Notes: generated by a model not told the origin, from the letters alone. A stretch of DNA of 34,370 nt from an uncultured Anaerolineae bacterium (GCA_964602575.1 CAZRSI010000003.1:1-34370); one strand, 5' to 3'. Positions 12,023-29,829 are shown, counted from the first letter of the stretch. Numbers and translations are program-made.

Positions 12023-12057
12023 TCTCCCTCCTTCGTGTTGATGTCTCTTTGTGCTCT

Positions 12058-12107: not shown

Positions 12108-12207
12108 GGGAGCGAAATACCACAAAAGGCAGCCAGCGATCCATCAACACGGTACAGGGAGACTACCTAGGGTCCAGCCCCAGAGAAACAGGTATTTTGA
12201 GGAGGCT

Positions 12208-14371: not shown

Positions 14372-14405
14372 GCGTACAAGTCATAGTTTCGCGATGAAAC
14401 CATCG

Positions 14406-14445
14406 GGCACCAAGCCCGAGTATAAATTTACTTGGGCTTGGTGCC
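14406..14445 (+). promoter_or_regulatory. Stem-loop directly after the binding-protein gene (attenuator or mRNA stabiliser)
   Basis: GGCACCAAGCCCGAG (14406-14420) pairs with CTTGGGCTTGGTGCC (14431-14445). That gives 15 bp with one G-U and a 10-nt AT-rich loop. Only TTT follows. Confidence 0.55.
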
Positions 14446-14459
14446 TTTGAAGGTGGAAT

Positions 14460-15395: not shown

Positions 15396-15478
15396 AAACC
15401 TGGAAGCCTATCCTCGCTGTTGTTGTCCTTATCCTGTGCATAACTTTTCCCTTTTATGCTGGGGCATATCCACAACGT

Positions 15479-16321
15479 GTGGCAACGACCATCATTATGT
15501 ATGCAACACTTGCCTTGAGCTGGGACATGATGTTTAGATCCGGACAGCCCGGCTTGAGTGTCGCAGGTTTCTTTGGCCTTGGGGGCTATGCCGCAGCTTT
15601 GTCCTTTCTTTATTGGGGGGTAAATCCGCTGGTATCTATTGCTCTTGGATGTCTGTTTTCCCTTCTAGTGGCGTTCATTTTAGGCTTGGTGATTCTGAGA
15701 ATCAGAGGATTGTATTTCTCAATTGCAACGATGTCATTGTCCGAGATATTCAGGGTGATCGTGATGAATTGGCACCGCTTCACAGGTGGACCTTCGGGGA
15801 AAGCACTTCCCTCGGCGGTCTTTAATGGAGATTCTGCCAAGATATTCTGGTTGTTTTTGGTGCTCACACTCCTTACGGTCATCGTTTCAGAAATCTTTGA
15901 AAGAAGCAGGATTCACTTTGCCCTCACGTCCATTCGGAACAATGAGATTGTTGCCAAATCAAGCGGAATAGACGTTTTCAAGTATCTGGTCGTTGTATTT
16001 GCGCTGACCTCAGCTCTTCAAGGAATGATCGGCGGTGCTTACGCTCACAGCTATGCGTTTATCTCGCCAGAGGGTAGTTTTAATTTCAATTTTGTTCTTT
16101 TGCCCGTGACCATGGCTCTCTTTGGAGGAATACACAGCACGCTAGGTCCGATAGTGGGAGCGGTGATACTAGGAGTGGTTGGAGAATATCTGAAATTGCA
16201 ATTGCCCTATGGGCACTTACTGGTCTACGGTGTAATCATAGTGATTGTTATTCTGTTCTTACCTAAGGGAATTGTCGGAACAGCCAAGGAACGATTGAAA
16301 CACAAATGGGCTACCATATAG
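15479..16321 (+). CDS. livM: Branched-chain amino acid-type ABC transporter permease (LivM family); the true start is probably upstream
   Basis: 280 aa from GTG 15479, with MYATLALSWDMMFRSGQPGLSVAGFFGLGGY typical of LivM. The in-frame upstream stretch 15392-15478 encodes a credible first transmembrane helix but has no canonical start codon (see findings). Confidence 0.85.
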   Translation: MATTIIMYATLALSWDMMFRSGQPGLSVAGFFGLGGYAAALSFLYWGVNPLVSIALGCLFSLLVAFILGLVILRIRGLYFSIATMSLSEIFRVIVMNWHRFTGGPSGKALPSAVFNGDSAKIFWLFLVLTLLTVIVSEIFERSRIHFALTSIRNNEIVAKSSGIDVFKYLVVVFALTSALQGMIGGAYAHSYAFISPEGSFNFNFVLLPVTMALFGGIHSTLGPIVGAVILGVVGEYLKLQLPYGHLLVYGVIIVIVILFLPKGIVGTAKERLKHKWATI

Positions 16322-16344
16322 GCTCTGCTCTCGGAGTGTGAGTG

Positions 16345-17061
16345 ATGCAAATTTTGGAGATTGAAAATCTGAGCAAATGTTTTGGGGGCTTGACGGCGCT
16401 TAACCAGGTGAATGCCAGATTTGAGGAAAGAGAGATCGTGGGGATCATTGGCCCCAACGGAGCCGGGAAGACAACTTTCATAAATGTCATTTCAGGGGTA
16501 TACCCTCCCAACAGTGGCAGGATCATTTTTGATGGGAGGGACATAACGAAATTACCTGCTCATACCAGATGCAGGCTCGGGATCGGGAGGACTTTTCAAG
16601 TCATTCACCCATTGCAAGATCTCAACTTGCTGCAAAACATCATGGTGGGTTCTCTTTTTGGGCAAGGAAATGGACTGAGAGAAGCTCGGGTAAAGGCACA
16701 AGAAATATGTGAATTTCTGGGACTTGACCAACTCGAAAGAGATACATCGCAACTAGACATCTTGGAAATTAAAAAGATGGAGATGGCCCGTGCTTTGGCA
16801 ACTCACCCCAAGATATTATTCCTAGATGAGATTATGGCGGGTCTGAGCGCAGACGAAACCAAAGAGGTGATTGAAACAATCCGAACCATCCGTGACCAAG
16901 GCATAACCATCTGCGTTGTAGAGCATGTGATGAGTGTAATTGAGGAATTGACTGAGAGGGTCATAGCCCTGGATGGTGGAAGAATCATAGCCCAGGGACA
17001 ATATAAAGAGGTAGCTAACAATCCTAGAGTAATCAGTGCTTACCTGGGAGAAGAAGAGTAA
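16345..17061 (+). CDS. livG: ABC transporter ATP-binding protein (LivG family) with a degenerate signature motif
   Basis: Walker A GPNGAGKTT, Walker B ILFLDE and H-loop VEHV are present. LDILE (16753-16767) stands where LSxGQ is expected. The start ATG 16345 is one codon after GTG 16342. Confidence 0.9.
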   Translation: MQILEIENLSKCFGGLTALNQVNARFEEREIVGIIGPNGAGKTTFINVISGVYPPNSGRIIFDGRDITKLPAHTRCRLGIGRTFQVIHPLQDLNLLQNIMVGSLFGQGNGLREARVKAQEICEFLGLDQLERDTSQLDILEIKKMEMARALATHPKILFLDEIMAGLSADETKEVIETIRTIRDQGITICVVEHVMSVIEELTERVIALDGGRIIAQGQYKEVANNPRVISAYLGEEE

Positions 17062-17763
17062 ATGCTGATCGTAAACAAGATCAACTGTTACTATGGCAAG
17101 TTGCATGTCATCCGAGATGCATCGCTGGAGGTAGGAAACGAGGCAGTGGGCTTATTTGGGCCTAATGGAGCAGGCAAGACCACCTTAATACATACTATCA
17201 TTGGCTTGTTAAAACCTGCGACTGGCAAGATTACTTTTGAGGGCAAATCCTTGCTTCACATGGAAACACATGAAATCATTCGAGAAGGGATTGCAATAGT
17301 TCCACAAGAGAGAGAACTATTTCCATTCATGTCTGTGCGAGGCAACTTGGAAGCAGGCGCCGCTTATATCCCAAGTGCCAAAAATAGAATGGGCGAGAGA
17401 TTGGATTACGTTTTTGATCTTTATCCCTTACTAAAAGAACGATCAAAGCAGCTTGCCGGGACATTAAGCGGAGGAGAACAACGGATGTTGGCGATTGCCC
17501 GCGCTCTTATGGCCTGCCCCAAGCTCCTCATTTTGGATGAACCGTCTTTGGGCTTGCAGCCTTCTTTGGTTTCGGAACTCTTTTGCAAGCTAAAGGAAAT
17601 CAAAAAAGAGGTCTCTATCCTGATAGCAGAACAGAATGTACGCCAAACTTTGAGAGTCATCGATAGAGGATATGTAATCGAGAATGGCAGGATTGTATGG
17701 AGTGATGATGCCGAAGGCCTGGCACGGAGCGAGAAAGTAAAAAAGTCGTATTTGGGTTTGTGA
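17062..17763 (+). CDS. livF: ABC transporter ATP-binding protein (LivF family)
   Basis: Walker A GPNGAGKTT, canonical signature LSGGEQ and Walker B LLILDE are present. It starts directly after the livG stop. Confidence 0.9.
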   Translation: MLIVNKINCYYGKLHVIRDASLEVGNEAVGLFGPNGAGKTTLIHTIIGLLKPATGKITFEGKSLLHMETHEIIREGIAIVPQERELFPFMSVRGNLEAGAAYIPSAKNRMGERLDYVFDLYPLLKERSKQLAGTLSGGEQRMLAIARALMACPKLLILDEPSLGLQPSLVSELFCKLKEIKKEVSILIAEQNVRQTLRVIDRGYVIENGRIVWSDDAEGLARSEKVKKSYLGL

Positions 17764-17771
17764 TCAAAGCG

Positions 17772-19091
17772 ATGAGCGACCTTGAAAATCTGAGAATCAA
17801 ACTCACCCCAGAGGAATGGGATATTCTACAGGGCAAGCAGGGGCCAACCATGCAGAGGGTCATGGAAACCGTGGTGCTCTATGGCGAAGCCTTGGGCGCG
17901 GAAAGGCTAGTGGACATCGAGGGGGCTGGACACTTCGTCATAGCCTGGGCCACCCCCGGAATCGCACCGTCCCTGGAGATGCTCGACGAATTGGTGGCGG
18001 CCGGCCTCAAGGCCAAACATTCTTTTACCTTGGACCCAAAAGCCCCCTTGGATTTTGAGAACCTGTGCTTGCGTCCGGAGCAGGAACGGCTCTTGGAACA
18101 GATGTATCGGGATCAGGCTCGCTACGATGAGAGAATGTTGCAACTGGGGCTCCGCGATGCAGATGCCTACACCTGCAATCCCTACTTGCCGGAAGTAGGC
18201 AACATACCCCAAAGAGGCACTATCCTGGCTTGGTCAGAGTCCGCCTGTGCGATTTTCGCCAATTCGGTGCTGGGCGCGAGAACCAATCGCAATGGGGCCA
18301 TCATGGACCTCCTCTCCAACATCGTGGGCAAGACACCCTTGGTGGGCCTCCTGACCGAGGAGGGGCGGCGGGCTACCTGGCTGGTGGAGGTGCGAACTAC
18401 GAAACTGCCACACCCGCAGTTGCTGGGAGCCGCCATCGGCAAGAAGGTGCTGGAGGGCGTGCCATTCATCGTAGGGCTGGATCGCTTTCTGGGTACTGAA
18501 CTGAGCGAGGAAACCCGCGATTACCTCCAGGACATGGGTGCAGCCTGCGCTACCTACGGGGCCGTCGGACTCTACCACGTGGAGAACATAACTCCTGAAG
18601 CGGTTGAGCAGGGCACCGACCTGCTGATTCCGGATCATGCGACCTACGTGATAGATGACCAGGAACTCCAGGGCCTGTTGGCCTCTTATCCGGTGCTGTG
18701 GCCTAGCGGGAAGACGAAACCTGAGAAGTGCTACATCGGGTGCCCTCATCTGAGCCTGCGACAGTTGTACTGGTGGACCGACAGGATCCACAATGCGCTG
18801 GAGGCCAGGGGCCAGAGCCAACTCGCCGTTGAGACTGTTCTGTTTGCCGCTCCCCAGGTATTGCAGAAGTTTAAAGCCGACACGGAGACCCACAAGCGAC
18901 TGCAGTGTGCCGGCGTCAAGCTCAGCCCAGCCTGCGCTGAGACCCTGTTCGAGGGTGGCGTGAGTGCGGAGGATGCGGTGGTCACCAACTCCAACAAGCT
19001 GCGGGCCTACACTACAGCCAGGTTCTTCCCCGATGAGGAACTGGTGGATATCCTGGTCAGTGGAGAGATAACAGACCCTAAGGGTTTCTGA
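17772..19091 (+). CDS. Aconitase X large (catalytic) subunit, DUF521 family
   Basis: The N-terminus LTPEEWDILQGKQGPTMQRVMETVVLYGEALGAERLVDIEGAGHF matches the DUF521/AcnX catalytic-domain pattern as I recall it. The ORF opens at GTG 17760, overlapping the livF stop, and ATG 17772 is the preferred start. About 440 aa is the expected size. Confidence 0.8.
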   Translation: MSDLENLRIKLTPEEWDILQGKQGPTMQRVMETVVLYGEALGAERLVDIEGAGHFVIAWATPGIAPSLEMLDELVAAGLKAKHSFTLDPKAPLDFENLCLRPEQERLLEQMYRDQARYDERMLQLGLRDADAYTCNPYLPEVGNIPQRGTILAWSESACAIFANSVLGARTNRNGAIMDLLSNIVGKTPLVGLLTEEGRRATWLVEVRTTKLPHPQLLGAAIGKKVLEGVPFIVGLDRFLGTELSEETRDYLQDMGAACATYGAVGLYHVENITPEAVEQGTDLLIPDHATYVIDDQELQGLLASYPVLWPSGKTKPEKCYIGCPHLSLRQLYWWTDRIHNALEARGQSQLAVETVLFAAPQVLQKFKADTETHKRLQCAGVKLSPACAETLFEGGVSAEDAVVTNSNKLRAYTTARFFPDEELVDILVSGEITDPKGF

Positions 19092-19123: not shown

Positions 19124-20419
19124 ATGAGCAAATCATCGGAGTTGATCGAACGCGACCACACCACCGTAGCCGCTACCATCTACAGATACACCAATATCGC
19201 CTTCCAGCGGGGCGAAGGGGTGTACCTCTACGATTGCGAGGGCCGCAGGTATCTGGACTTTGTGGCGGGCATCGCCACCATGAACGTGGGACACTGTCAC
19301 CCGGCCGTGGTGGAGGCCATCTGCGACCAGGCCCGTACCCTCATCCACGGCGCCTGCCACGTGGGTTACATGGAGCCTTACGTGGACCTGCTGGAGGCAC
19401 TCAAGGCCGTGGCCCCCGGCGACCTCAAGAACGGCAAAGGCATCCTGATGAACAGCGGGTCAGAGGCGGTGGAGACGGGCATCAAACTGGCCCGCTATGT
19501 CACCAACCGCCCCATGATCCTGGCCTTTACCGATAGCTTCCACGGGCGGGCTATGGGAGCCTTGGCCCTCACCGCCAGCAACACACTCTACCGCCGACGC
19601 CTGGCCGGCCTTCTGACGGGTGTCTATCACACTCCCTACCCCTACTGTTACCGCTGCCCCCTGAAGCACGAATCGCCAGAGACGTGCGGGCTGGCCTGCC
19701 TCAACCTGGTGGAAAAGGCGCTCCAGACAGTGGTCCCGCCCGAAGACCTGGCGGGCATTGTAGTCGAGCCTATCGCCGGCGAGGGGGGCTACATCGTCCC
19801 GCCCGACGGCTTCCTCCAGGGCCTGCGGGAGATCTGCGACCGTCACGGGGCGCTGCTCATTGCCGATGAGGTGCAAACGGGCTTGGGCCGTACTGGGAAG
19901 ATGTTCGCCGTGGAGCATTGGGGTGTGGTGCCCGATGTCTTATGCCTGGCCAAAGCACTGGGAGGCGGTTTGCCCCTGGGGGCGATGCTGGCCAGAGCGG
20001 ACTTGATAGACGCTTGGCCCCCGGCGGCCCAGGGCACCACCTTTGGCGGCAACCCCATTGCCTGTCGGGCTGGCCTGGCCAGCTTGCGGATCATTCAAGA
20101 GGAGAATCTGATGGCCCACGCCGTGGAGGTGGGCAATTACATTCAGAATCGCTTTCGCGAAGCTCAGAGGGAACTGCCCATCATCGGAAACGTGCGAGGC
20201 AAGGGGCTGATGGTGGCGGTGGAATTGATCAACGCCGACGGCAGCCCGGCCAGCGAGATCATCAAGGCAGTGATCAAAGAGATCGGGGCCCAAGGCGTGG
20301 TCATGACCAAATGCGGCGCCAGCTCTCTGCGCATCGCCCCGCCACTCATCATCACCCAGGAACAGGCAGAAGAGGGGGTGGATATCATCATCGAAACATT
20401 GCGCCGTCATCAGTGGTAG
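19124..20419 (+). CDS. Class-III PLP-dependent aminotransferase (omega-amino acid, GABA or acetylornithine type)
   Basis: 431 aa with the RBS GAGGAGGAGG upstream. It has DEVQTGLGRTGKMFA and the LAKALGGGLPLGA Schiff-base lysine region. Confidence 0.9.
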   Translation: MSKSSELIERDHTTVAATIYRYTNIAFQRGEGVYLYDCEGRRYLDFVAGIATMNVGHCHPAVVEAICDQARTLIHGACHVGYMEPYVDLLEALKAVAPGDLKNGKGILMNSGSEAVETGIKLARYVTNRPMILAFTDSFHGRAMGALALTASNTLYRRRLAGLLTGVYHTPYPYCYRCPLKHESPETCGLACLNLVEKALQTVVPPEDLAGIVVEPIAGEGGYIVPPDGFLQGLREICDRHGALLIADEVQTGLGRTGKMFAVEHWGVVPDVLCLAKALGGGLPLGAMLARADLIDAWPPAAQGTTFGGNPIACRAGLASLRIIQEENLMAHAVEVGNYIQNRFREAQRELPIIGNVRGKGLMVAVELINADGSPASEIIKAVIKEIGAQGVVMTKCGASSLRIAPPLIITQEQAEEGVDIIIETLRRHQW

Positions 20420-20547: not shown

Positions 20548-22056
20548 ATGATAAAACTTACAGAAAGAGCAGCCAGTATACAACCTATTAAGTCGAAACT
20601 AAAGATCAGCGTGCTCGACGATGAGGACATACAGAAGATAAACCAGGCCGCCCTGACTATCTTGGAAGAAGTCGGGGTAGTGATGCCGTCGGAGAAGGCG
20701 CTGAGGATCTTCGCCGATGCCGGGGCCAATGTGGATTTCGACAAGAAGCTGGTCAAGATTCCAAGTCACCTGGTAGTTGATTCCTTGAAGAAAGCCCCCA
20801 GGCGTTACACTCTATGTGGAAGGAGGCCTGAGCTCGATGCCCATATAGGAAGCAATGAGGGCACCTACTTCTATTGCAGTGGCGAAGCGCCCAAGATCGT
20901 GGACCTGGAAACCGGTGAGAGGCGACACTCGATCAAGAGCGACGTGGGAAACATGGCGAAGGTAGCCGACTACCTTCCCATCGTATCACTGGTTTGGCCA
21001 ACGGTCAGCGCAAACGATAAAGGAGTGACTGCGCCGATTCACGGGGTGGAGGCCTGCTTCAACAATACGGAAAAGCATGTCCAGACGGAATCCGTCATGG
21101 ACAAGATCTCAGCTAAGTATACTATTGAGATGGCCTCCGTAATCGCTGGAGGCCGGGACAAGCTGAGGGAGAGGCCGATCTTCTCGCTCCTGTTATGCGC
21201 TATCGCACCCCTTGCTCAGGATAGAGGAGGGATAGAAGCGGCTTTAACCTTCGCCGAAGCCGGTCTGCCGGTAGGGGTAATGTCCATGCCCACCATGGGC
21301 CTGACAGCCCCGCCATATCAGGCTGCTGCCCTGGCTGTGGGGTTGGCGGAAACGTTGAGCGGTTGTACCTTGATCCAGATTGCCTACCCAGGGACTCCCA
21401 ACTACATATCCATCATCCCGGCAATTATAGATCCACGAACGGGAAGCTACTTCATGGGGTCAGCCTTTGCCCAGATCGCCAGTGCTGCCGCCGTTCAGCT
21501 TGCCCATTCCAACGGACTACCTATTACGGCCTGCAAATCCTTCGGTGGAAGCCAGTATAAATTGAATAATTGGCAAGTAGGAATAGAGAATCTTTATGGC
21601 CATATCCTGGCAGTCATGGCCGGGGCGGACATGTCCTTCGGGCCCAGCGGCATGATAGAGGCCGTGAGTTTGCTGGATATGAGAAGGATCCTATTTGACC
21701 GCGAGATCCTTCAGGTCATAGACATCGTCACCGATGGAATCGAGGTAAACAGCGAGACTCTGGCTTTTGACATGGTGCGCGAGGTAGGTCCTCGAGGTAT
21801 GTTCTTAGCTCAACGGCGCACGGCAAAAGAGCTTCGCAAACTCTGGCCCTCCTCTATCCTGCTTGAACCATCCCAGGTTCCAGAGGAAAGATACAGGGAT
21901 CCAGTGGAGGTTGCCCACGAGGTTATTGACTGGATCCTGAAGAATCATAAGCCAGAACCATTGCCCGAAGACGTGAGGGAGGAACTCAGGAGGATAGTGG
22001 CTGCTGCTGATCGGGATAAGGAGCTGAAGCGAGAAGTTGAAGGAGCCCACAGGTGA
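20548..22056 (+). CDS. MttB-superfamily methyltransferase, non-pyrrolysine type (quaternary amine:corrinoid methyltransferase candidate)
   Basis: 502 aa with the RBS AAAAGGAGG upstream. The N-terminus LDDEDIQKINQAALTILEEVGVVMPSEKALRIFADAGANVD and the overall length are typical of the trimethylamine methyltransferase (MttB) family. The reading frame is uninterrupted, with no in-frame TAG. Confidence 0.8.
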   Translation: MIKLTERAASIQPIKSKLKISVLDDEDIQKINQAALTILEEVGVVMPSEKALRIFADAGANVDFDKKLVKIPSHLVVDSLKKAPRRYTLCGRRPELDAHIGSNEGTYFYCSGEAPKIVDLETGERRHSIKSDVGNMAKVADYLPIVSLVWPTVSANDKGVTAPIHGVEACFNNTEKHVQTESVMDKISAKYTIEMASVIAGGRDKLRERPIFSLLLCAIAPLAQDRGGIEAALTFAEAGLPVGVMSMPTMGLTAPPYQAAALAVGLAETLSGCTLIQIAYPGTPNYISIIPAIIDPRTGSYFMGSAFAQIASAAAVQLAHSNGLPITACKSFGGSQYKLNNWQVGIENLYGHILAVMAGADMSFGPSGMIEAVSLLDMRRILFDREILQVIDIVTDGIEVNSETLAFDMVREVGPRGMFLAQRRTAKELRKLWPSSILLEPSQVPEERYRDPVEVAHEVIDWILKNHKPEPLPEDVREELRRIVAAADRDKELKREVEGAHR

Positions 22057-23477
22057 GAATCGAGCACGTGGCCGTCATCGGCGCCGGCACGATGGGACAC
22101 GGCATCGCCCAAGTATTCGCTCTGGGCGGCTTGCAGGTGGCCCTGACCGACAGCGATGCGGAGGTTCTGGGAAAAGCGATTCAGCGCATCCAGGCGAATC
22201 TCGAGACTTGTGTTGAGTATGGCCTCATCGCTGAAGAACAGGCTGCGGCCGTACCAGCCCGTATCGCTTTGACCTCCAATCTGGCCGATGCGGTTGCTCA
22301 GGCTGACTTCATCGTGGAAGCCGTCTTTGAGAACCTCGCCGTCAAGCGCGAGGTGCTTCGCCAATTGGAGGAGTGCTGTCCGGCCCACGCCATCATCGCC
22401 AGCACCACCTCCAGCTTTCGCGCCCGTGACATGGCCGTCGCGCTGAGCCGCCCGGAGCGGTTCCTGGTAACCCACTTTTGGAATCCGCCATACGTCATTC
22501 CGGTCGTGGAGGTGATGCCTGGAGATCGCACCTCCGCCGAGGCTGTCCAGACCACCATGACGCTTCTAGAAGATGTGGGCAAGTATCCAGCGCTGGTGAG
22601 GAAGGACGTGGCCGGTTTCGTCGGTAATAGGCTGCAGCACGCTTTGCGCCGAGAGGCGATTGCCATCGTGGCTGAGGGTATCGCCAGCCCTGAGGATGTG
22701 GACCTCATCGCCAGGCTGAGTTTCGGCCTGCGGTTGCCCGTGCTGGGCCCACTGGAGACCGTTGATCTGGGTGGCCTGGACCTCACGCTGGCCATTCAGA
22801 CCTACCTGCTCCCGGAGCTGGACCGTTCCACCGAGCCCAAGCCGTTGATCCGCGATAAGGTGGCACGCGGCGAACTGGGTGCCAAAGCCGGCCGAGGATT
22901 CTACGACTGGCCCCCAGGCCGGGCTGCGGAGGTCATTCGGCGACGGGACGAGGCTCTTCTGGAGATGGTTCAGTGGTTGAGATCCCGCGGTTTCCTGCAG
23001 ACCCGAAGGGTTTCGAAAACCCTTCGGGTCTCCTTCCAGGGAAGAGCGATCCTTCCAGGCAACCTGGAAGGTGAGGCCCTGGTAACCCACATGGGGTTTA
23101 ACGCTTACGCCAGCTTCTCTACCAGCATCCACGCTCCGGTGGAGTCGGCCCAATGCGCCGACAGCAGCAATCCGGAACTCTACGGGAAGAATCTGACCGA
23201 CAAGATCCTTTGCCTTCCCCAAACCACCGGCTCCACCTCAGCCGGAGCGGTGTGGCAAAGGGTGGCCCAAATGGGGATCGCGCCCAAAGCGGTGTTGTTT
23301 TCCCAACGGATAGACTCCTTGGCTGCTGGAGGATTGATCGTAGCCGATGTGTGGGCTGGCAAGCGAATCGTCACCGTAGACCAATTAGGTGACGAGTTCC
23401 TGGAAACCGTCCGGGACGGCGACCGGATCGTGATACGAGAGGATGGCACAGTCATTGTCGAGAAGGGAGAAGCATGA
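22053..23477 (+). CDS. Fusion protein: N-terminal 3-hydroxyacyl-CoA-dehydrogenase-family NAD domain plus C-terminal aconitase X small (swivel) subunit, DUF126
   Basis: The GTG start overlaps the mttB stop (GTGA). The N-terminal part has the Rossmann motif VIGAGTMGHGIA and HFWNPPYVIPVVEV. The C-terminal roughly 148 aa (GRAILPGNLEGEALV...KILCLPQTTGSTSAGAVW...GDRIVIREDGTVIV) match the DUF126 pattern. The linker TRRVSKTLRVS is encoded by the palindrome at 22999-23031. Confidence 0.8.
   Translation: MRIEHVAVIGAGTMGHGIAQVFALGGLQVALTDSDAEVLGKAIQRIQANLETCVEYGLIAEEQAAAVPARIALTSNLADAVAQADFIVEAVFENLAVKREVLRQLEECCPAHAIIASTTSSFRARDMAVALSRPERFLVTHFWNPPYVIPVVEVMPGDRTSAEAVQTTMTLLEDVGKYPALVRKDVAGFVGNRLQHALRREAIAIVAEGIASPEDVDLIARLSFGLRLPVLGPLETVDLGGLDLTLAIQTYLLPELDRSTEPKPLIRDKVARGELGAKAGRGFYDWPPGRAAEVIRRRDEALLEMVQWLRSRGFLQTRRVSKTLRVSFQGRAILPGNLEGEALVTHMGFNAYASFSTSIHAPVESAQCADSSNPELYGKNLTDKILCLPQTTGSTSAGAVWQRVAQMGIAPKAVLFSQRIDSLAAGGLIVADVWAGKRIVTVDQLGDEFLETVRDGDRIVIREDGTVIVEKGEA
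22999..23031. repeat. 33-nt palindrome (copy 2) lying in frame inside the fusion ORF
   Basis: AGACCCGAAGGGTTT-cga-AAACCCTTCGGGTCT has 15-bp arms. It differs from copy 1 by paired changes in both arms: CTAAG/CTTAG versus CGAAG/CTTCG. Confidence 0.8.
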
Positions 23478-24664
23478 ATATCATTGCACCAGAAGAAGCA
23501 GGTTTTTCATCAGAACGGCTGAAGCGGATTGATGCGGCAATGCAGCGCTACGTTGATCAGAAAAAGGTGGCTGGCATTGTAACGCTGGTAGCGCGTCGTG
23601 GCAAGGTGGTTCATTATGAGAAATTCGGCTACCAGGACCTGGCCACCAGTCAACCGATGGAATTGGATACCATCTTCCGCATCTACTCCATGACCAAGCC
23701 CATTACCAGCGTGGCCTTCATGATGCTGTTTGAACAGGGCCTGGTTCGCCTGACCGATCCTGTAACCAAATTCATACCCGAGTTTGGGCAGGTTAAGGTC
23801 CTCGTTGGCGAGGACGGGCTAACCGATCTCGAACGCGAGATCACCATTCACGATCTGCTCCGGCACACCGCCGGGCTGAGCTACGGCGGCTATAAGGAAA
23901 CCCACGACCCAATTGACAAGCTGTACGATCAGGTGAACCTTTGGGAGCCAGGCATCACCAGCCAGGAGATGGTGCGACGCCTTACCGAGCTGCCTCTGGC
24001 CTTCCAGCCAGGGCAGGGATGGCGGTACAGTGTGGCTACCGATGTGGTCGGCTACCTGGTGGAGTTGATCTCCGGTATGTCTCTGGCCGAATTCTTCGCG
24101 GAAAGGATCCTGCAACCTCTTGGCATGGAGGATACGGCTTTCTCCGTGTCGCCCGACAAGAGGCATCGCTTCGCCACGCTGTATGGGAAGACCGAGCAGA
24201 GCGACTTGGAGGTAATTGACACAGCTACAGGTGGCGACTATTTCAACGTAAGCCTTTATTCAGGCGGGCATGGTCTGGTGTCTACTGCAGCCGATTATCT
24301 GCGCTTTGCTCAATTGATCCTCAACAAAGGCGAGTTGGACGGCGTGCGCTTGCTGGGACCGAAGACCGTGGAACTGATGACCACCAATCACCTCCCGCCC
24401 GACTTATTGCCGATAGCAATGAGCGGGGAACAAATGCCCGGGATAGGCTTCGGACTGGGTTTCAGCGTGATGATGGATGTGGCCCTCTCGGGGTGGATGG
24501 GCTCTGTGGGCCTCCATGCCTGGGGCGGCTGGGCCAGCACACATTTCTGGGTGGACCCACAGGAGCAGCTCATCGGTATCCTCATGCTACAGTACATACC
24601 TAGCGATGCCTACCCGATCAAAAACGATTTCAGGACGCTTGTCTACCAGGCGCTTATCGAGTGA
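23474..24664 (+). CDS. Beta-lactamase-fold serine hydrolase (class C / EstB / D-aminopeptidase-like family)
   Basis: 396 aa with an ATGA overlap onto the upstream stop. It has the S-x-x-K motif YSMTKPITS and WRYSVATD (Tyr motif region). Confidence 0.85.
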   Translation: MNIIAPEEAGFSSERLKRIDAAMQRYVDQKKVAGIVTLVARRGKVVHYEKFGYQDLATSQPMELDTIFRIYSMTKPITSVAFMMLFEQGLVRLTDPVTKFIPEFGQVKVLVGEDGLTDLEREITIHDLLRHTAGLSYGGYKETHDPIDKLYDQVNLWEPGITSQEMVRRLTELPLAFQPGQGWRYSVATDVVGYLVELISGMSLAEFFAERILQPLGMEDTAFSVSPDKRHRFATLYGKTEQSDLEVIDTATGGDYFNVSLYSGGHGLVSTAADYLRFAQLILNKGELDGVRLLGPKTVELMTTNHLPPDLLPIAMSGEQMPGIGFGLGFSVMMDVALSGWMGSVGLHAWGGWASTHFWVDPQEQLIGILMLQYIPSDAYPIKNDFRTLVYQALIE

Positions 24665-24883: not shown

Positions 24884-26731
24884 ATGACTAGGAAGACTCT
24901 GACCAATCTGGTTCTGGCGCTAGCCATGTTGCTGACCATGTTGGGTGCGGCCAGCGCTGCCCCGCCGGCCCAGGAGGAGATGACCTACACGGTCAAGCTG
25001 GGGGACAACCTGTGGACCCTGGCGGAGAAGTACCTGGGCAGCGGTCCGGCCTACTGGGCCATCGTCGGTGCTACCAATACCAGACATGGGACAGACCCCA
25101 CCTTCGCCCGCATCGAGAACCCCGACCTGATCCATCCTGGCTGGAAGCTCCTCATCCCCAGTGTCGAGGAAGCAGCGAGATATGCTGCTCTCGCCAAGCC
25201 TGTCCCGACCGGCCTCGTCACCATGCGCGTCGGCACCACCTACATCCTGGACACCATCAACGTCAACGTGTCCTGGACGAGCTGGTCCATCTGGCGGCTC
25301 ATCTACGATGCACTGATCGAGACGAGCGCTCTGGGCGTCTATAGGCCCGGCCTCGCAGAGAGCTGGAGCGTGTCCGACGATGGCCTGACCTGGACGTTTA
25401 AGATCCGGAAGGGAGTGACCTTCCACGACGGTACGCCCTGCACCGCCAAGGACGTCGCCTGGAGCCTCAACTGGATGAAAACGGTAGGGAACGACAGCCT
25501 GTCCTATCTGTGGGATGATGAAACCGAGGAAATCGTTGCCCTGGACGACACCACCTTGCAGATCAAGACCCCCTTCCCAGTGGGCAACATGGAGTACCGC
25601 ATGTTCTGGGCCTTCATTGTCCCGAAGAGTGTATGGGGCGGCATTGACAACTACGACGATATGGCAGCCTACACGGAGCTCGATGCTGCCACAGGCACGG
25701 GCCCCTTCAAGGTGGTGGACTATGCCCCAGATGAGTACCTGATCCTGGAGGCCAATGAGAACTACTGGGGGGGCAAGCCTGCCATTGACAGGCTCATCTT
25801 CCAACAGTACGCCACTGAGGATGCCATGGTGCAGGCGCTGCTGGCTGGCGAGATTGACGCCATCGAGGGCGTTCCAGCCACAGCGGTCCAAACCTTGCAG
25901 GAGGCGGATAACATCCACGTGGAGATCCTGCAAGGGCACGCGGTGGATGAGTTGACCATCAACTCCCACGAGAACGGCACCCAGCCGCCCAGCCTGAACG
26001 ATCCCATTGTGCGCCTAGCCATCGAGTATGCCATTGACCGCCAGAAGATCATTGACGTGGCCTACATGGGTTTCGGCACGCCAGCCACGACCATGATCGC
26101 TCCCAGCCTGGGAGACTGGCACAACAGCGAAATCGAGGCCATCCCCTTCGACCCCGACGAGGGCAATCGCATCCTCGATGAAGCCGGCTACCTGGACACC
26201 GACGGCGATGGCATCCGCGAGTGGTCCGATGGCACCCCGATGAAGTACCGCCTGATGGGTGGAGACACTGCTACCGACGCCCGCGTCCTGGAGATCATCG
26301 CCGATGGCTTGGCCCAGATTGGCATCGGCACCGAGATCAACGCCGTGGACTTTGAAACCCAGTCCGCAAAGGCTTACGAGTACGACTTCGACTTGAACTA
26401 CTGGTGGTGGGGCATGGACATTGATCCCGACTTTGCTATGGTGATCTTCAAATGCGAGGAGCGAGAGGGCTGGGGCTGGAATCCCAACGGTTACTGCAAC
26501 CCAGAGTTCGAGGAGTTGTACAAGCAACAGGCCAGGGCCGTGGATCACGAAGAACGGCGCAAGATCATCTGGAAGATGCAGGAAATGATTTACAACGATC
26601 GCCCCTGGATCGTGCTCCTCTATCGGGTCAACATCGCGGCCTATCGCAGCGACCGCTTCACTGGCTTCAGGCCGGAAGCCAAGTATCTGCTGGGGAAGTG
26701 GTCACTGATGCATGTTGAGCCCCTGGTATAG
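24884..26731 (+). CDS. Family-5 (Dpp/Opp-type) peptide ABC substrate-binding protein with an N-terminal LysM domain
   Basis: It has a signal peptide ending in ASAAPPA, with no lipobox. The LysM-like module YTVKLGDNLWTLAEKYLG...IHPGWKLLIP spans about 24986-25159. The remaining roughly 520 aa are SBP_bac_5-like (FKIRKGVTFHDGTP, ANENYWGGKP). The RBS AAGGAGG lies upstream. Confidence 0.85.
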   Translation: MTRKTLTNLVLALAMLLTMLGAASAAPPAQEEMTYTVKLGDNLWTLAEKYLGSGPAYWAIVGATNTRHGTDPTFARIENPDLIHPGWKLLIPSVEEAARYAALAKPVPTGLVTMRVGTTYILDTINVNVSWTSWSIWRLIYDALIETSALGVYRPGLAESWSVSDDGLTWTFKIRKGVTFHDGTPCTAKDVAWSLNWMKTVGNDSLSYLWDDETEEIVALDDTTLQIKTPFPVGNMEYRMFWAFIVPKSVWGGIDNYDDMAAYTELDAATGTGPFKVVDYAPDEYLILEANENYWGGKPAIDRLIFQQYATEDAMVQALLAGEIDAIEGVPATAVQTLQEADNIHVEILQGHAVDELTINSHENGTQPPSLNDPIVRLAIEYAIDRQKIIDVAYMGFGTPATTMIAPSLGDWHNSEIEAIPFDPDEGNRILDEAGYLDTDGDGIREWSDGTPMKYRLMGGDTATDARVLEIIADGLAQIGIGTEINAVDFETQSAKAYEYDFDLNYWWWGMDIDPDFAMVIFKCEEREGWGWNPNGYCNPEFEELYKQQARAVDHEERRKIIWKMQEMIYNDRPWIVLLYRVNIAAYRSDRFTGFRPEAKYLLGKWSLMHVEPLV

Positions 26732-26748
26732 GGAGGTTAGCGTCAATA

Positions 26749-26783
26749 TCCGGTCGGCCCGGCTCGTTGCCGGGCCGACCGGA
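26749..26783 (+). promoter_or_regulatory. Stem-loop directly after the peptide-binding-protein gene
   Basis: TCCGGTCGGCCCGGC-tcgtt-GCCGGGCCGACCGGA is a 15-bp perfect GC-rich stem. No T-tract follows. Confidence 0.6.
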
Positions 26784-26800
26784 ATCCTCACGAGGCGGGT

Positions 26801-27814
26801 ATGCAGCGCAGCGACTATCTGATTCGTAAGGCCTTTTGGGCACTCATCACCCTGGTGGTGGTGATTGTCTTCAACTTCTTTCTCTTCCGCATCTTGCCCG
26901 GCGACCCAGTCAGGGCGCTCATCCAAAGCGCCAGAATGGACCGCGAGGCGCAGGAGAGGATCAGGACCCAGTTTGGGCTGGATAAGCCCATCTGGCTAGA
27001 CGTGGAGCGACTGCGGCAAGGCGACATAAGAGGAACCCTGGACACACAGTTCACTGCCTATGTGAGTAATTTACTGCGAGGAAACCTGGGGGTCTCCTTC
27101 ACCAAGAAGATGCCCGTGAGCAAGCTGCTGGCGGAGCGCGTGTGGCGAACGGTGGTACTGTTGGCCCTCGGCGAGGTGATATCCATCGTGTTGGGCATCA
27201 TCCTGGGCATCGTGGCCTCGTGGCGGCGCGGCTCCAAGCTCGATACTGGCATAATGATGTGGGGGCTGTTCACCTGGTCTATTCCCACCTTCTTCTTCGG
27301 CATCATCCTGGTGATATTGGCCCGTGGGCACCTCCCGACCGGTATGATGGTCACCCCAGGCCTGAAGCCGGAGGACGGCCTGACCTATTGGCTAGATGTG
27401 GGGAAACATCTCATTTTGCCCACCATCACCTTGGGTATTGGGTACGTCAGCATGTACATGATGGTTATGCGCAGCAGCGTGGTGGAGGTGCTGAGCGAAG
27501 ACTACATCCTGACTGCCAAGGCCAAGGGGCTGAGTACCTTCCGGATTCTGCGCGACCATGCGCTCAAGAACGCCATGCTGCCCATGATAACCAACATCAT
27601 GCTCACCCTGGGCTATACCGTCGGCGGGGCTATCCAGGTGGAGACGGTCTTCTCCTGGCCGGGGATCGGGCGGCTGATCTACGACGCGGTGGGCAAGCAG
27701 GATTTTCCAGTGCTGCAGGGCGCGTTCCTGTTGATTGCCGCCAGTGTCATTGGAGCCAACTTCCTCGCCGACCTGTTATACTCGGTGCTGGACCCGCGGG
27801 TGAAGGCGGAATAG
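26801..27814 (+). CDS. Peptide/nickel-type ABC transporter permease (DppB/OppB family)
   Basis: 337 aa with the N-terminus YLIRKAFWALITLVVVIVFNFFLFRILPGDP and the EAA-loop region DYILTAKAKGLS typical of the family. Confidence 0.9.
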   Translation: MQRSDYLIRKAFWALITLVVVIVFNFFLFRILPGDPVRALIQSARMDREAQERIRTQFGLDKPIWLDVERLRQGDIRGTLDTQFTAYVSNLLRGNLGVSFTKKMPVSKLLAERVWRTVVLLALGEVISIVLGIILGIVASWRRGSKLDTGIMMWGLFTWSIPTFFFGIILVILARGHLPTGMMVTPGLKPEDGLTYWLDVGKHLILPTITLGIGYVSMYMMVMRSSVVEVLSEDYILTAKAKGLSTFRILRDHALKNAMLPMITNIMLTLGYTVGGAIQVETVFSWPGIGRLIYDAVGKQDFPVLQGAFLLIAASVIGANFLADLLYSVLDPRVKAE

Positions 27815-27827
27815 GAGTGCTGGGGAG

Positions 27828-29698: not shown

Positions 29699-29702
29699 TA
29701 AC

Positions 29703-29804
29703 TAACCCTCCCGCAGGTTTGGGAGCAATTTCGAGTAGGGATACGCTTCAACACCAGATTTGATTCCGTTAGTCGGGATGATTCTTGAACCTGTGGGAGG
29801 GTAA
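29703..29804. repeat. Long-range inverted repeat filling the dppD/dppF spacer
   Basis: TAACCCTCCCGCAGGTT (29703-29719) pairs with AACCTGTGGGAGGGTAA (29788-29804), giving about 16 bp with one G-U and one mismatch. It encloses about 68 nt of unique sequence. Confidence 0.6.
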
Positions 29805-29829
29805 CTGGGTAAACACAGAGGTTAATTGA

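What the first reader, a model, noticed from the sequence alone, without database searches (positions are those of the whole stretch)
20548..22056. Non-pyrrolysine MttB-family methyltransferase without a local corrinoid partner, MT2 or reductive activase
Seen in sequence: a complete 502-aa MttB-family ORF has no in-frame amber codon. The only B12-binding corrinoid protein in the window is 10 kb away on the opposite strand (31985-32620). I could recognise no pterin-binding methylcorrinoid:THF methyltransferase and no RamA-type activase in the window.

Established knowledge: non-Pyl MttB homologues are substrate-specific quaternary-amine demethylases. Examples are MtgB for glycine betaine, MtpB for proline betaine, MtcB for carnitine and MtyB for gamma-butyrobetaine. 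They normally work with a cognate corrinoid protein, an MT2 and an activase, and these are usually clustered.

Inference: embedding between AcnX halves, an aminotransferase and a hydroxyacid-dehydrogenase domain suggests a substrate specificity not yet described for the family.
Basis: partly seen in the sequence, partly recalled or inferred. Interest (0 to 1): 0.65.

Follow-up and report, generated by a model that had tools for sequence, protein, structure and literature searches.

The report
Uncharacterised MttB-family methyltransferase in a catabolic operon
This gene encodes a vitamin-B12-dependent enzyme that strips methyl groups from a nitrogen compound; it belongs to a large untested branch of its family in uncultured Chloroflexi, its B12-carrier partner is the protein 10 kb away, and its neighbours suggest a GABA-like compound rather than any known betaine.

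Summary
ORF 20548-22056 is a full-length MttB-family protein without pyrrolysine (PF06253, E 3e-72). It has no internal stop codon. The window has one corrinoid protein (31985-32620, minus strand) and no MT2 or activase.

The "orphan" status is only a matter of gene order. The protein belongs to a dense Chloroflexota orthologue group (65-100% identity). In 20 of 36 informative loci a corrinoid-protein gene lies within 200 bp of the MttB gene. In L007 and L034 a 75-78% orthologue of the window's corrinoid protein sits between the aminotransferase and MttB genes. Three relatives carry the full set: corrinoid protein, pterin MT2 and RACo activase.

The group is not MtgB. It is 27% identical to MtgB. 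The four glycine-betaine-binding residues (Y97, R312, H348, F356) are replaced (G112/E113, T327, G365, V373). It is equally far from Pyl-MttB (28%).

Conserved neighbours are a 3-hydroxyacyl-CoA-dehydrogenase-type enzyme, a GabT-like aminotransferase, split aconitase X, a family VIII esterase, and a block with an AbfD-like 4-hydroxybutyryl-CoA dehydratase, ACAD and ETF.

This points, by inference only, to an N-methylated GABA-type or carnitine-type amino acid. It is a new member of a known kind, of moderate interest.

The parts
20548..22056 (+). Non-pyrrolysine MttB-superfamily methyltransferase (MT1). It belongs to an uncharacterised Chloroflexota orthologue group.
   Evidence: PF06253 E 3e-72. 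PDB 7xcl E 2e-53 and 9yce E 2e-49, both over the full length. 120+ orthologues at 74-97% identity. Active-site mapping.
31985..32620 (-). Corrinoid (B12-binding) protein, the probable cognate methyl acceptor.
   Evidence: PF02607 + PF02310 and a DxHxxG motif. It is 75-79% identical to corrinoid proteins encoded directly upstream of clade MttB genes in L007, L034, L046, L054 and L055.
19124..20419 (+). Class III aminotransferase resembling GABA aminotransferase.
   Evidence: PF00202 E 2e-125. E. coli GabT 1sf2 E 5e-89, with residues aligned to GabT R141, E211, K268 and R398 conserved. An AT3 gene lies within 5 kb of the clade MttB in 10 of 15 well-flanked loci.
22053..23477 (+). 3-hydroxyacyl-CoA-dehydrogenase-family enzyme fused to the AcnX small-subunit (swivel) domain. 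Its start overlaps the MttB stop by 4 bp.
   Evidence: PF02737, PF00725 and PF01989. PDB 4om8 E 4e-54, then Hbd enzymes. The 3HCDH gene lies within 900 bp downstream of MttB in 19 of 44 loci with enough flank, including minimal MttB-3HCDH pairs.
17760..19091 (+). Aconitase X large subunit (type II), a presumed Fe-S dehydratase for a beta-hydroxy acid.
   Evidence: PF04412 E 1e-79. [quoted passage not shown] It is conserved upstream of MttB in L024, L025, L026, L007, L034, L042 and L111.
23474..24664 (+). Family VIII (beta-lactamase-fold) carboxylesterase-like hydrolase. Its start overlaps the end of the upstream gene by 4 bp.
   Evidence: PF00144. PDB 7pp3 esterase E 1e-100 and 4ivi carboxylesterase E 7e-89. 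Conserved in L024, L025, L005, L007, L034, L042 and L111.
24884..30852 (+). Opp/Dpp-type ABC importer: family-5 binding protein with a LysM-like N-terminus, two permeases and two ATPases.
   Evidence: The same block lies downstream in L024 and L111.
13112..17763 (+). Liv-type (branched-chain amino acid family) ABC importer. Its last gene overlaps the AcnX_L start by 4 bp.
   Evidence: It is specific to this window; relatives have Opp-type permeases at this position.
7667..9199 (+). AbfD-like 4-hydroxybutyryl-CoA dehydratase / vinylacetyl-CoA isomerase.
   Evidence: PDB 1u8v E 4e-92. C99, C103 and C299 are conserved, and H292 is replaced by Y. It is contiguous with AcnX_L-MttB in L042 and lies in the MttB operon of L066.
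4661..7698 (+). Acyl-CoA dehydrogenase plus EtfB and EtfA (Bcd/Acr-type complex).
   Evidence: The same block lies upstream of AbfD-MttB in L042.
9304..12022 (+). AMP-forming acyl-CoA ligase and an alpha/beta hydrolase.
   Evidence: Both are conserved next to AbfD in L042. Ligase orthologues lie next to MttB in L054, L064 and L110.
12049..12936 (+). Small QueG / reductive-dehalogenase-like protein with two 4Fe-4S cluster motifs. Role unknown.
   Evidence: PDB 4uqu E 2e-9 and 5d6s E 2e-6. TIGR02486 and TIGR00276 score below their cut-offs. Cys motifs. Homologues lie near clade MttB genes in L024, L026, L042, L002 and L054; an unannotated 278-aa gene occupies the same position directly upstream of MttB in L111 (homology not tested).
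436..4581 (+). TetR (TetR_C_13) regulator, AMP-ligase, SDR and KASIII-like genes at the head of the plus-strand gene array.
   Evidence: Orthologues of the TetR, AMP-ligase and SDR lie downstream of the MttB operon in L065 and L066.
31069..33696 (-). Minus-strand operon that now holds the corrinoid protein: Cys/Cys proline-racemase-family gene (32671-33696), corrinoid protein, and PanB (31069-31932).
   Evidence: Neither ProRac nor PanB is found near clade MttB genes in any other locus, so the association with MttB is uncertain.

Best explanation
What it is: the ORF encodes the substrate-binding methyltransferase (MT1) of a corrinoid-dependent N-demethylation system. The host is an uncultured Chloroflexota bacterium, probably an anaerobe related to the Anaerolineae.

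How it works: like its solved relatives, it should be a TIM-barrel protein that holds an N-methylated amine in its central pocket. The Co(I) form of a small corrinoid protein attacks one methyl group. The acceptor is the protein encoded at 31985-32620. A pterin-binding MT2 then passes the methyl group to tetrahydrofolate, and a RACo-type activase repairs oxidised cobalt. Both of these are encoded outside the window.

Where it sits in the family: it represents an uncharacterised orthologue group, distinct from MtgB and from Pyl-MttB.

Inference on substrate and pathway:
- The carbon skeleton is an omega-amino acid of the GABA type.
- Candidates are gamma-butyrobetaine or its partly demethylated forms, and carnitine-type 3-hydroxy or O-acyl derivatives.
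- The demethylated product is deaminated by the adjacent GabT-like aminotransferase.
- The carbon then flows through an AbfD-like 4-hydroxybutyryl-CoA dehydratase and an acyl-CoA dehydrogenase/ETF.
- The 3HCDH enzyme, the split aconitase X and the family VIII esterase would handle a 3-hydroxy or ester function.

Shown versus inferred: family membership, the corrinoid link and the conserved context are shown. The substrate and the order of steps are inferred.
For: Family and fold:
- PF06253 E 3e-72.
- Full-length homology to solved MttB (7xcl, E 2e-53) and MtgB (9yce/2qne, E 2e-49).
- MttB G110 and M249 are conserved.

Corrinoid dependence:
- Of 36 non-redundant clade loci with at least 800 bp on both sides, 20 have a corrinoid-protein gene within 200 bp.
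- L002, L054 and L110 carry corrinoid protein(s), MttB, a Pterin_bind MT2, a B12-activation-like protein and RACo.
- L007 and L034 have the window's exact architecture (AcnX_L-AT3-[CoP]-MttB-3HCDH-AcnX_S-esterase). Their corrinoid protein, between AT3 and MttB, is 75-78% identical to the window's.

Distinct subfamily:
- 27-28% identity to MtgB and to Pyl-MttB, which are 30% identical to each other.
- At least 150 cluster representatives at 50% identity score higher than either solved enzyme.
- The MtgB ligand residues Y97, R312, H348 and F356 (PMC13080624) align to G112 or E113, T327, G365 and V373. These are invariant or nearly so in the clade.
- Glu113 is invariant in 119 of 120 members and absent from the nearest representative clusters.

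Pathway context:
- Within 5 kb in 15 well-flanked loci: AT3 in 10, and 3HCDH, AcnX_L, AcnX_S and esterase in 6 each.
- Minimal MttB-3HCDH pairs occur in L009, L035, L040 and L043.
- AT3 keeps GabT R141, E211, K268 and R398.
- The AbfD-like enzyme matches 1u8v at E 4e-92.
- It is contiguous with MttB in L042 and inside the operon CoP-MttB-CoA transferase-MaoC-AT3-MttB2-TetR-AbfD in L066.
Against: - No substrate was tested, and no docking or reliable model was possible. The AlphaFold model had mean pLDDT 47.5.
- Characterised non-Pyl MttB enzymes remove only one methyl group from a quaternary amine. The product is a tertiary amine that an aminotransferase cannot use. The aminotransferase link therefore needs further demethylation steps or a mono-methyl substrate, neither of which is shown.
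- 3HCDH, ACAD, AMP-ligase and CoA-transferase are generic families. Their best NCBIfam hits are all far below the curated cut-offs.
- AcnX and 3HCDH have no obvious place in the classical GABA fermentation route.
- The window's corrinoid protein is co-operonic with a proline racemase homologue and PanB. That points in another direction.
- MT2 and activase were not found in about 41 kb of contig sequence. Their presence in this genome is assumed from relatives.
Confidence: 0.6

Rival explanations
1. It is functionally an ordinary, already described quaternary-amine demethylase. It would remove a single methyl group from glycine betaine, gamma-butyrobetaine, carnitine, proline betaine or phosphocholine, in a divergent sequence lineage. 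The product would be excreted or handled elsewhere, and the neighbouring genes would be merely co-located catabolic genes.
For: - All characterised non-Pyl members act on quaternary amines (PMC13080624, PMC8604678, PMC12155760).
- The clade is clearly corrinoid-dependent and in some loci sits in a canonical CoP-MT1-CoP-MT2-activase cluster with MTHFR and GcvT nearby (L002, L110).
- Gamma-butyrobetaine or carnitine as a quaternary substrate would still fit the C4 context.
Against: - The glycine-betaine ligand residues of MtgB are all replaced.
- The Arg equivalent to R312, reported as conserved in MtgB, MtcB, MtpB, MtyB and MthB (PMC13080624), is Thr in 109 of 120 clade members. No invariant basic residue lies in that loop.
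- The aromatic-cage positions are Gly/Glu and Val.
- The tight linkage to a GabT-like aminotransferase is conserved across several gene orders. That is hard to explain if the product is a tertiary amine.
Confidence: 0.2
2. The system acts on an N-methylated proline derivative, such as proline betaine, N-methylproline or a hydroxyproline betaine. [quoted passage not shown] The aminotransferase would act on ring-opened 5-amino-2-oxopentanoate or on 5-aminovalerate.
For: - ProRac (Cys/Cys type; 7pb3 E 4e-93) is co-operonic with the corrinoid protein.
- The only characterised bacterial AcnX function is cis-3-hydroxy-L-proline dehydration (PMC5144071, PMC8184944).
- An enolase-superfamily (MR_MLE) gene occurs in the L025 and L005 clusters.
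- The AbfD-like enzyme has an altered cluster ligand (H292 to Y), so it may take a different chain length.
Against: - ProRac and PanB are not found near clade MttB genes in any of the other loci.
- AcnX_L is closer to archaeal type II AcnX than to the hydroxyproline dehydratase. Bacterial type IIc-f AcnX enzymes lack the hydroxyproline landmark residues (PMC8184944).
- No D-proline reductase or Pyr2C reductase is in the window.
- The Arg conserved in MtpB is missing.
Confidence: 0.1
3. The substrate is an N-methylated beta-amino acid, such as beta-alanine betaine, N-methyl-beta-alanine or a 3-aminobutyrate derivative. The product would be deaminated without CoA: aminotransferase to a 3-oxo acid, 3HCDH to a 3-hydroxy acid, and AcnX to a 2-enoate. 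The enoate would then be activated and reduced by the ACAD/ETF (acryloyl-CoA or crotonyl-CoA reductase).
For: - The trio AT3, 3HCDH and AcnX matches this chemistry step for step, and 3HCDH is physically fused to the AcnX small subunit.
- The ACAD's best NCBIfam hit is acryloyl-CoA reductase AcrC (378 bits, below cut-off) with EtfAB adjacent.
- The ADP-forming CoA ligase in L026 best matches 3-hydroxypropionate-CoA ligase (far below cut-off).
Against: - It does not explain the conserved AbfD-like 4-hydroxybutyryl-CoA dehydratase.
- All family hits are below their curated cut-offs.
- AcnX and AT3 are absent from the minimal MttB-3HCDH loci.
Confidence: 0.08
4. The protein is a true orphan. It would not use a corrinoid protein in this organism: it would be inactive, moonlighting, or would transfer methyl groups to a different acceptor.
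For: No corrinoid protein is adjacent, and no MT2 or activase lies in the window or in about 41 kb of matching contigs.
Against: - An orthologous corrinoid protein lies 10 kb away (75-79% identical to those adjacent to MttB elsewhere).
- 173 positions are invariant across the clade, which includes corrinoid-linked members.
- Positions contacting the corrinoid or active site in MttB (G110, M249) are conserved.
- The ORF is intact and translationally coupled to downstream genes.
Confidence: 0.02

Closest known systems
MtgB, glycine betaine:corrinoid methyltransferase of Desulfitobacterium hafniense (PDB 2QNE/9YCE)
   Same: - Same superfamily (PF06253) and no pyrrolysine.
- Full-length alignment, E 2e-49.
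- In relatives, the partner set is the same kind: small corrinoid protein, pterin MT2 and reductive activase.
   Different: - Only 27% identity.
- The ligand residues Y97, R312, H348 and F356 align to G112/E113, T327, G365 and V373.
- The gene context is different.
MttB, pyrrolysine-containing trimethylamine methyltransferase of Methanosarcina barkeri (PDB 7XCL)
   Same: - Best solved-structure hit (E 2e-53).
- G110 (cis-peptide Gly) and M249 are conserved.
- TIGR02369 is the only NCBIfam hit.
   Different: - No amber codon. Gly334 stands at the Pyl position, with a two-residue insertion (Ser-Phe) in that loop.
- Tyr364 is replaced by Phe, and Thr111 by Glu.
- 28% identity, and the TIGR02369 score is below cut-off.
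MtyB and MtcB, gamma-butyrobetaine and L-carnitine methyltransferases of Eubacterium limosum
   Same: They are non-Pyl MttB members acting on C4 omega-trimethylammonio acids. That is the skeleton class the window's context suggests. MtyB shows trace activity on the secondary amine 4-methylaminobutyrate (PMC8604678).
   Different: - The E. limosum enzymes remove one methyl group and excrete the product.
- They share the common MtqC/MtqA partners and are reported to keep the R312-equivalent Arg (PMC13080624). The clade has Thr there.
MtgB/MtgC/MtgD split system of Ruegeria pomeroyi (PMC12478193)
   Same: It is a precedent for an MttB-family MT1 whose corrinoid protein, pterin MT2 and RamA-type activase are encoded at separate loci.
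   Different: It comes from an aerobic alphaproteobacterium, acts on glycine betaine and doubles as a methionine synthase. There is no evidence for that here.
4-aminobutyrate fermentation pathway of Clostridium aminobutyricum (GABA aminotransferase, 4-hydroxybutyrate dehydrogenase, CoA transferase, AbfD; own knowledge plus PDB 1U8V)
   Same: The window encodes a GabT-like aminotransferase, an AbfD homologue (E 4e-92), CoA-activating enzymes and an ACAD/ETF.
   Different: - Here these genes are linked to a corrinoid methyltransferase, split AcnX, a 3HCDH and an esterase.
- AbfD ligand H292 is replaced.
- No Fe-type 4-hydroxybutyrate dehydrogenase was recognised.

Membership tests
MttB superfamily (PF06253) | Significant full-length match to the family HMM | tested here: met
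   243.6 bits against a cut-off of 25, E 3.3e-72, profile positions 24-493 of 500.
MttB superfamily (PF06253) | Homology over the whole TIM-barrel plus C-terminal dimerisation region to solved members | tested here: met
   7xcl covers residues 19-489 at E 2e-53. 9yce covers 19-492 at E 2e-49. The independent AlphaFold model was too poor to add anything.
MttB superfamily (PF06253) | Works with a cognate small corrinoid protein (genomic association) | tested here: met
   20 of 36 clade loci have a B12-binding protein gene within 200 bp. The window's own copy is 10 kb away but orthologous to those. Biochemical transfer was not tested.
Pyl-MttB (trimethylamine methyltransferase, TIGR02369) | In-frame UAG / pyrrolysine at position 334 | tested here: not met
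   No internal stop codon. Gly334 aligns with Pyl.
Pyl-MttB (trimethylamine methyltransferase, TIGR02369) | Score above the equivalog cut-off; conserved Tyr364 | tested here: not met
   366.7 bits against a cut-off of 525. Phe364 occurs in 116 of 120 clade members.
MtgB (glycine betaine methyltransferase) | Glycine-betaine-binding motif Y97, R312, H348, F356 (PMC13080624) | tested here: not met
   The motif aligns to G112 or E113 (depending on the alignment), T327, G365 and V373, conserved in the clade.
MtcB / MtyB / MtpB / MthB (E. limosum quaternary-amine methyltransferases) | Arg equivalent to MtgB R312 binding the acidic group of the substrate (reported conserved in all, PMC13080624) | tested here: not met
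   Thr327 occurs in 109 of 120 members, and no invariant Lys or Arg lies in the loop. This rests on alignment to MtgB only.
MtcB / MtyB / MtpB / MthB (E. limosum quaternary-amine methyltransferases) | Phylogenetic clustering with the characterised sequence | not testable with these tools
   The sequences are not in any accessible library. The paper supplements held no sequences.
Complete corrinoid methyltransferase system (MT1 + corrinoid protein + MT2 + reductive activase) | MT2 (pterin-binding, or homocysteine- or CoM-binding) encoded with the system | tested here: not met
   None is in the window or in overlapping contigs. A Pterin_bind MT2 is present in relatives L002, L054, L110, L041 and L076. 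The rest of the genome could not be searched.
Complete corrinoid methyltransferase system (MT1 + corrinoid protein + MT2 + reductive activase) | RamA/RACo-type activase encoded with the system | tested here: not met
   None is in the window. RACo is present in L002, L054 and L110. The rest of the genome could not be searched.

The most novel reading that the evidence does not exclude
This Chloroflexota MttB clade is a pyrrolysine-independent demethylase for secondary or tertiary N-methyl omega-amino acids, such as 4-methylaminobutyrate, 4-dimethylaminobutyrate or norcarnitine. An invariant Glu113 would replace the aromatic cage and hold the protonated amine.

Together with paralogues, it would allow complete demethylation of gamma-butyrobetaine or carnitine to GABA-type amino acids. 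These would then be transaminated and fermented through an AbfD-type 4-hydroxybutyryl-CoA pathway.

That would supply the unknown sink for the 'dead-end' products excreted by gut and sediment acetogens (PMC8604678). It would also be the first physiological non-Pyl MttB acting on a non-quaternary amine.
Probability: 0.18. Interest if true: 0.8.

Novelty: new member of a known kind. Interest (0 to 1): 0.48.

Why it matters
Only six substrate specificities are known for the MttB superfamily: TMA, glycine betaine, proline betaine, carnitine, gamma-butyrobetaine and phosphocholine. The superfamily has thousands of sequence clusters; this search found 6121 representatives at 50% identity.

This clade is abundant in sediment Chloroflexota. 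It has a distinct pocket signature and a conserved, interpretable operon, which makes it a well-defined target for assigning a new substrate.

If the aminotransferase link is real, some anaerobes strip all the methyl groups from osmolyte- or carnitine-derived amines and use both the nitrogen and the carbon skeleton. That bears on methylamine and methane-precursor budgets in sediments. It also bears on the unknown fate of 4-dimethylaminobutyrate and norcarnitine.

The practical lesson for annotation is that "no local corrinoid partner" is not evidence of an unusual mechanism in this family.

Tried and rejected
- **Structure prediction.** An AlphaFold2 model built from a 28-sequence alignment of close orthologues had mean pLDDT 47.5. 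It was too poor for a fold search or pocket analysis, so I did not use it.
- **Sequences of characterised enzymes.** I tried to obtain MtcB, MtyB, MtpB and MthB sequences from paper supplements. The supplements held none, so a direct phylogeny against them was not possible.
- **Looking beyond the window for MT2 and activase.** The contigs carrying ProRac are 3 kb or shorter and show only a metallo-beta-lactamase and an unknown gene upstream. The contigs carrying the TetR gene extend 4 kb upstream to a prolyl-tRNA synthetase. Neither contains MT2 or an activase.
- **A closed Anaerolineae genome.** It carries an AcnX_L homologue (L114), but there the cluster is degraded and has no MttB.
- **RNA and signal scans.** Rfam gave no hit at gathering thresholds, so no cobalamin riboswitch was found. 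The promoter and terminator scan found no more sites than in shuffled sequence.
- **PanB as MT2.** I considered that PanB, which binds a folate substrate, might substitute for MT2. I rejected this because it scores above the curated PanB cut-off and is not conserved with the system.
- **DMSP-type sulfonium substrate.** DmdB-like ligase hits prompted this idea. The hits are far below cut-off, and the idea would not explain the aminotransferase.
- **The second MttB paralogue in L066.** I tested whether it keeps the quaternary-amine motif. It is too divergent (18-24% identity) to say.
Full report
**1. Observation**

ORF 20548-22056 (+) is intact. It runs from ATG to TGA and encodes 502 aa with no internal stop. 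An AAGGAGG ribosome-binding site precedes it, and the nearest upstream in-frame stop is at 20506.

It matches PF06253 at 243.6 bits (E 3e-72) over almost the whole profile. The pyrrolysine-type equivalog TIGR02369 scores 366.7 bits against a cut-off of 525. TAG terminates 12 of the 30 genes in the window, so it is a normal stop codon here.

The only B12-binding protein is 31985-32620 (-). It has PF02607 and PF02310 and a DxHxxG motif.

No pterin-binding MT2, RACo/RamA activase or B12-activation-domain protein is present. I checked this with Pfam annotation of every gene and with tblastn using such proteins taken from a related locus. The factual part of the finding is confirmed.

**2. Gene map**

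The plus strand carries one long array:

| Coordinates | Gene |
|---|---|
| 436-1110 | TetR regulator |
| 1237-2781 | AMP-ligase |
| 2756-3544 | SDR |
| 3541-4581 | KASIII-like |
| 4661-7698 | Acyl-CoA dehydrogenase, EtfB, EtfA |
| 7667-9199 | HpaB-fold protein, in fact AbfD-like (1u8v E 4e-92) |
| 9304-10947 | AMP-ligase |
| 10967-12022 | Alpha/beta hydrolase |
| 12049-12936 | Small QueG / reductive-dehalogenase-like 2x[4Fe-4S] protein |
| 13112-17763 | Liv-type ABC importer |
| 17760-19091 | AcnX large subunit |
| 19124-20419 | Class III aminotransferase (AT3) |
| 20548-22056 | MttB |
| 22053-23477 | 3HCDH fused to the AcnX swivel domain |
| 23474-24664 | Family VIII esterase-like hydrolase (7pp3 E 1e-100) |
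| 24884-30852 | Opp-type ABC importer |

LivF/AcnX_L, MttB/3HCDH and 3HCDH/esterase each overlap by 4 bp.

The minus strand carries PanB, the corrinoid protein and a Cys/Cys proline-racemase homologue (31069-33696). A truncated metallo-beta-lactamase gene follows.

**3. The protein belongs to a large orthologue group that depends on a corrinoid protein**

A protein search returned more than 120 clusters at 74-97% identity. The few that carry a source name are from Anaerolineae or other Chloroflexi MAGs. Genome and metagenome scans added loci at 65-100% identity from Anaerolineae, Ardenticatenales and Dehalococcoidia MAGs.

I searched all loci by tblastn with the window's proteins and with the MT2, activase and other proteins of locus L002. 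Counts for non-redundant clade loci:

| Flank on both sides | Loci | Neighbour counts |
|---|---|---|
| At least 800 bp | 36 | Corrinoid protein within 200 bp: 20. 3HCDH within 800 bp: 14. One or the other adjacent: 30. |
| At least 5 kb | 15 | Within 5 kb: corrinoid protein 9; MT2 3; RACo 3; AT3 10; AcnX_L, AcnX_S, esterase and 3HCDH 6 each. |

L002, L054 and L110 show a canonical set: corrinoid protein(s), MttB, pterin MT2, a Met_synt_B12-like protein and RACo. MTHFR and GcvT lie nearby.

L007 and L034 have exactly the window's architecture, AcnX_L-AT3-[CoP]-MttB-3HCDH-AcnX_S-esterase. The difference is a corrinoid-protein gene between AT3 and MttB, and that protein is 75-78% identical to the window's 31985-32620 product. 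L046, L054 and L055 have the same orthologue (76-79%) directly upstream of MttB.

Three conclusions follow:
- The enzyme is a corrinoid-dependent MT1.
- The window's distant corrinoid protein is the cognate type.
- The gene was displaced in this lineage, as it also was in L024, L025, L005 and L006.

Absence of MT2 and activase within 5 kb is the rule in this clade (12 of 15 loci). Dispersed components have experimental precedent in Ruegeria pomeroyi (PMC12478193). The "orphan" aspect is therefore ordinary.

**4. It is not one of the characterised groups that could be tested**

Identity is 27% to D. hafniense MtgB and 28% to M. barkeri Pyl-MttB. Those two are 30% identical to each other.

In the library clustered at 50% identity, at least 150 representatives score above 200 bits. 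The two solved enzymes score 172-185 bits. The clade therefore lies in a large unexplored part of the superfamily.

Picking et al. 2026 (PMC13080624) showed by mutagenesis and a ligand-bound structure that MtgB binds glycine betaine through Y97 and F356 (cation-pi) and R312 and H348 (carboxylate). They state that R312 is conserved in MtcB, MtpB, MthB and MtyB. In three independent alignments these positions map as follows:

| MtgB residue | Window residue | Conservation in the clade |
|---|---|---|
| Y97 | G112 or E113 (alignment-dependent) | E113 in 119 of 120 |
| R312 | T327 | Thr in 109 of 120; no invariant basic residue in the loop |
| H348 | G365 | invariant in all 120 members |
| F356 | V373 | 113 of 120 |

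Relative to Pyl-MttB (PMC9842639):
- The cis-peptide Gly110 and Met249 are conserved.
- Thr111 becomes an invariant Glu113.
- Tyr364 becomes Phe.
- Pyl334 aligns with Gly334, next to a two-residue insertion.

Glu113 is specific to the clade. The nearest representative clusters (55-40% identity) have Cys, Val, Ser or Thr there.

Direct comparison with MtcB, MtyB, MtpB and MthB was impossible because their sequences could not be obtained.

**5. What the context says about the substrate (inference)**

The most persistent partners besides the corrinoid protein are the following.

(a) The 3HCDH enzyme.
- It is often the only other conserved gene (L009, L035, L040, L043).
- In the window, L006 and L025 it is fused to the AcnX small subunit.

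(b) The class III aminotransferase.
- It appears next to the MttB gene in several different gene orders and at several levels of divergence: 83-93% identity in window-type loci, 63% in L065-L068, 41% in L052, and 32% with an alanine dehydrogenase in L109.
- It is GabT-like (1sf2 E 5e-89).
- It keeps the residues aligned with GabT R141, E211, K268 and R398. The roles of these residues are from my own knowledge of GabT. They argue for an omega-amino acid with a distal carboxylate.

(c) The AbfD-like 4-hydroxybutyryl-CoA dehydratase with ACAD/ETF and CoA-activating enzymes.
- In L042 the block ACAD-EtfBA-AbfD-ligase-hydrolase-QueG-like runs straight into AcnX_L-MttB-AcnX_S-esterase.
- In L066 the operon reads CoP-MttB-CoA transferase III-MaoC hydratase-AT3-second MttB paralogue-TetR-AbfD.

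Taken together, these resemble the Clostridium aminobutyricum GABA fermentation route (own knowledge; PDB 1U8V) preceded by N-demethylation.

The 3HCDH, the AcnX dehydratase and the family VIII esterase would fit 3-hydroxy or O-acyl derivatives such as carnitine or acylcarnitines. Bacterial type IIc-f AcnX enzymes have unknown function (PMC8184944), and this one is closer to archaeal type II.

None of this is shown. Every neighbour scores far below the curated equivalog cut-offs. Characterised non-Pyl MttB enzymes remove only one methyl group from a quaternary amine (PMC8604678).

**6. Alternatives**

- **An N-methylated proline derivative.** The proline-racemase homologue beside the corrinoid protein and the known AcnX function suggest this. 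However, ProRac and PanB accompany the system in no other locus.
- **A beta-amino-acid route.** The sequence would be AT3 to a 3-oxo acid, 3HCDH to a 3-hydroxy acid, then AcnX to an enoate. This matches the fused enzymes but leaves AbfD unexplained.
- **A known quaternary betaine with unrelated neighbours.** This cannot be excluded without assays.
- **A truly partnerless protein.** This is very unlikely.

**7. Novelty and verdict**

This is a new, uncharacterised member (subfamily) of a known kind of system.

The feature that drew attention, the lack of local partners, is ordinary.

The most novel reading not excluded is a Pyl-independent demethylase for secondary or tertiary N-methyl omega-amino acids. 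It would complete the breakdown of gamma-butyrobetaine or carnitine to GABA. I put that at roughly 0.18.

Overall interest is 0.48.

Noticed in passing
window 12049-12936 (+): A small protein, probably about 240 aa from an internal Met. Its C-terminal half resembles reductive dehalogenases and epoxyqueuosine reductase QueG, which are B12/Fe-S enzymes, and it has two 4Fe-4S Cys motifs. No Pfam or NCBIfam model reaches its cut-off. Homologues sit near clade MttB genes in L024, L026, L042, L002 and L054, often next to an ADP-forming acyl-CoA synthetase; L111 has an unannotated gene in the same position. It could be a redox helper for the corrinoid system.
   Followed up: partly
window 7667-9199 (+): The protein is annotated by Pfam as HpaB-like but is an AbfD-type 4-hydroxybutyryl-CoA dehydratase (1u8v E 4e-92). 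Cluster ligands C99, C103 and C299 are conserved. H292 is replaced by Tyr, and an extra Cys lies three residues later. This may mean an altered Fe-S ligation or a different substrate.
   Followed up: partly
window 31069-33696 (-): The corrinoid protein is co-operonic with a Cys/Cys proline-racemase-family gene (7pb3 E 4e-93) and a bona fide PanB (above the TIGR00222 cut-off). This is an unusual combination, and it was not seen in any related locus.
   Followed up: partly
window 22053-23477 (+); L006, L025 versus L024, L026, L111: The AcnX small (swivel) subunit is fused to the C-terminus of a 3HCDH-family dehydrogenase in some genomes and is a separate 147-157-aa gene in others. In L042 the MttB gene lies directly between the AcnX large and small subunit genes.
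   Followed up: partly
window 19075-19103: A perfect 13-bp-stem palindrome (ACCCTAAGGGTTT CAG AAACCCTTAGGGT) spans the stop codon of the AcnX large-subunit gene, just before the aminotransferase gene. A second hairpin with an 8-bp stem lies at about 20459-20486, in the 128-bp gap before MttB.
   Followed up: no
window 24884-26731 (+): The family-5 solute-binding protein has an N-terminal LysM-like segment (residues about 25-93). This may anchor it to the cell wall.
   Followed up: no
L066 14600-16009 (also L065, L067, L068): The operons of the 65-68% subclade contain a second, very divergent MttB paralogue (18% identical to the window protein). It lies after the CoA-transferase, MaoC hydratase and aminotransferase genes. 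This hints at stepwise demethylation by different enzymes.
   Followed up: partly
L020 3358-12922: A Chloroflexia MAG carries five MttB paralogues on one strand within about 10 kb, four of them in two adjacent pairs (30-42% identity to the window protein).
   Followed up: no
L002 6377-7210; L110 6014-6916: Homocysteine S-methyltransferase-domain (PF02574) genes lie near the canonical MttB clusters of two relatives. Methyl groups might therefore also be routed to methionine, as in the Ruegeria split methionine synthase.
   Followed up: no
window 33894-34370 (-): This ORF is the C-terminal part of a metallo-beta-lactamase-fold protein cut by the end of the window. The complete 287-aa gene is visible in L107.
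   Followed up: yes
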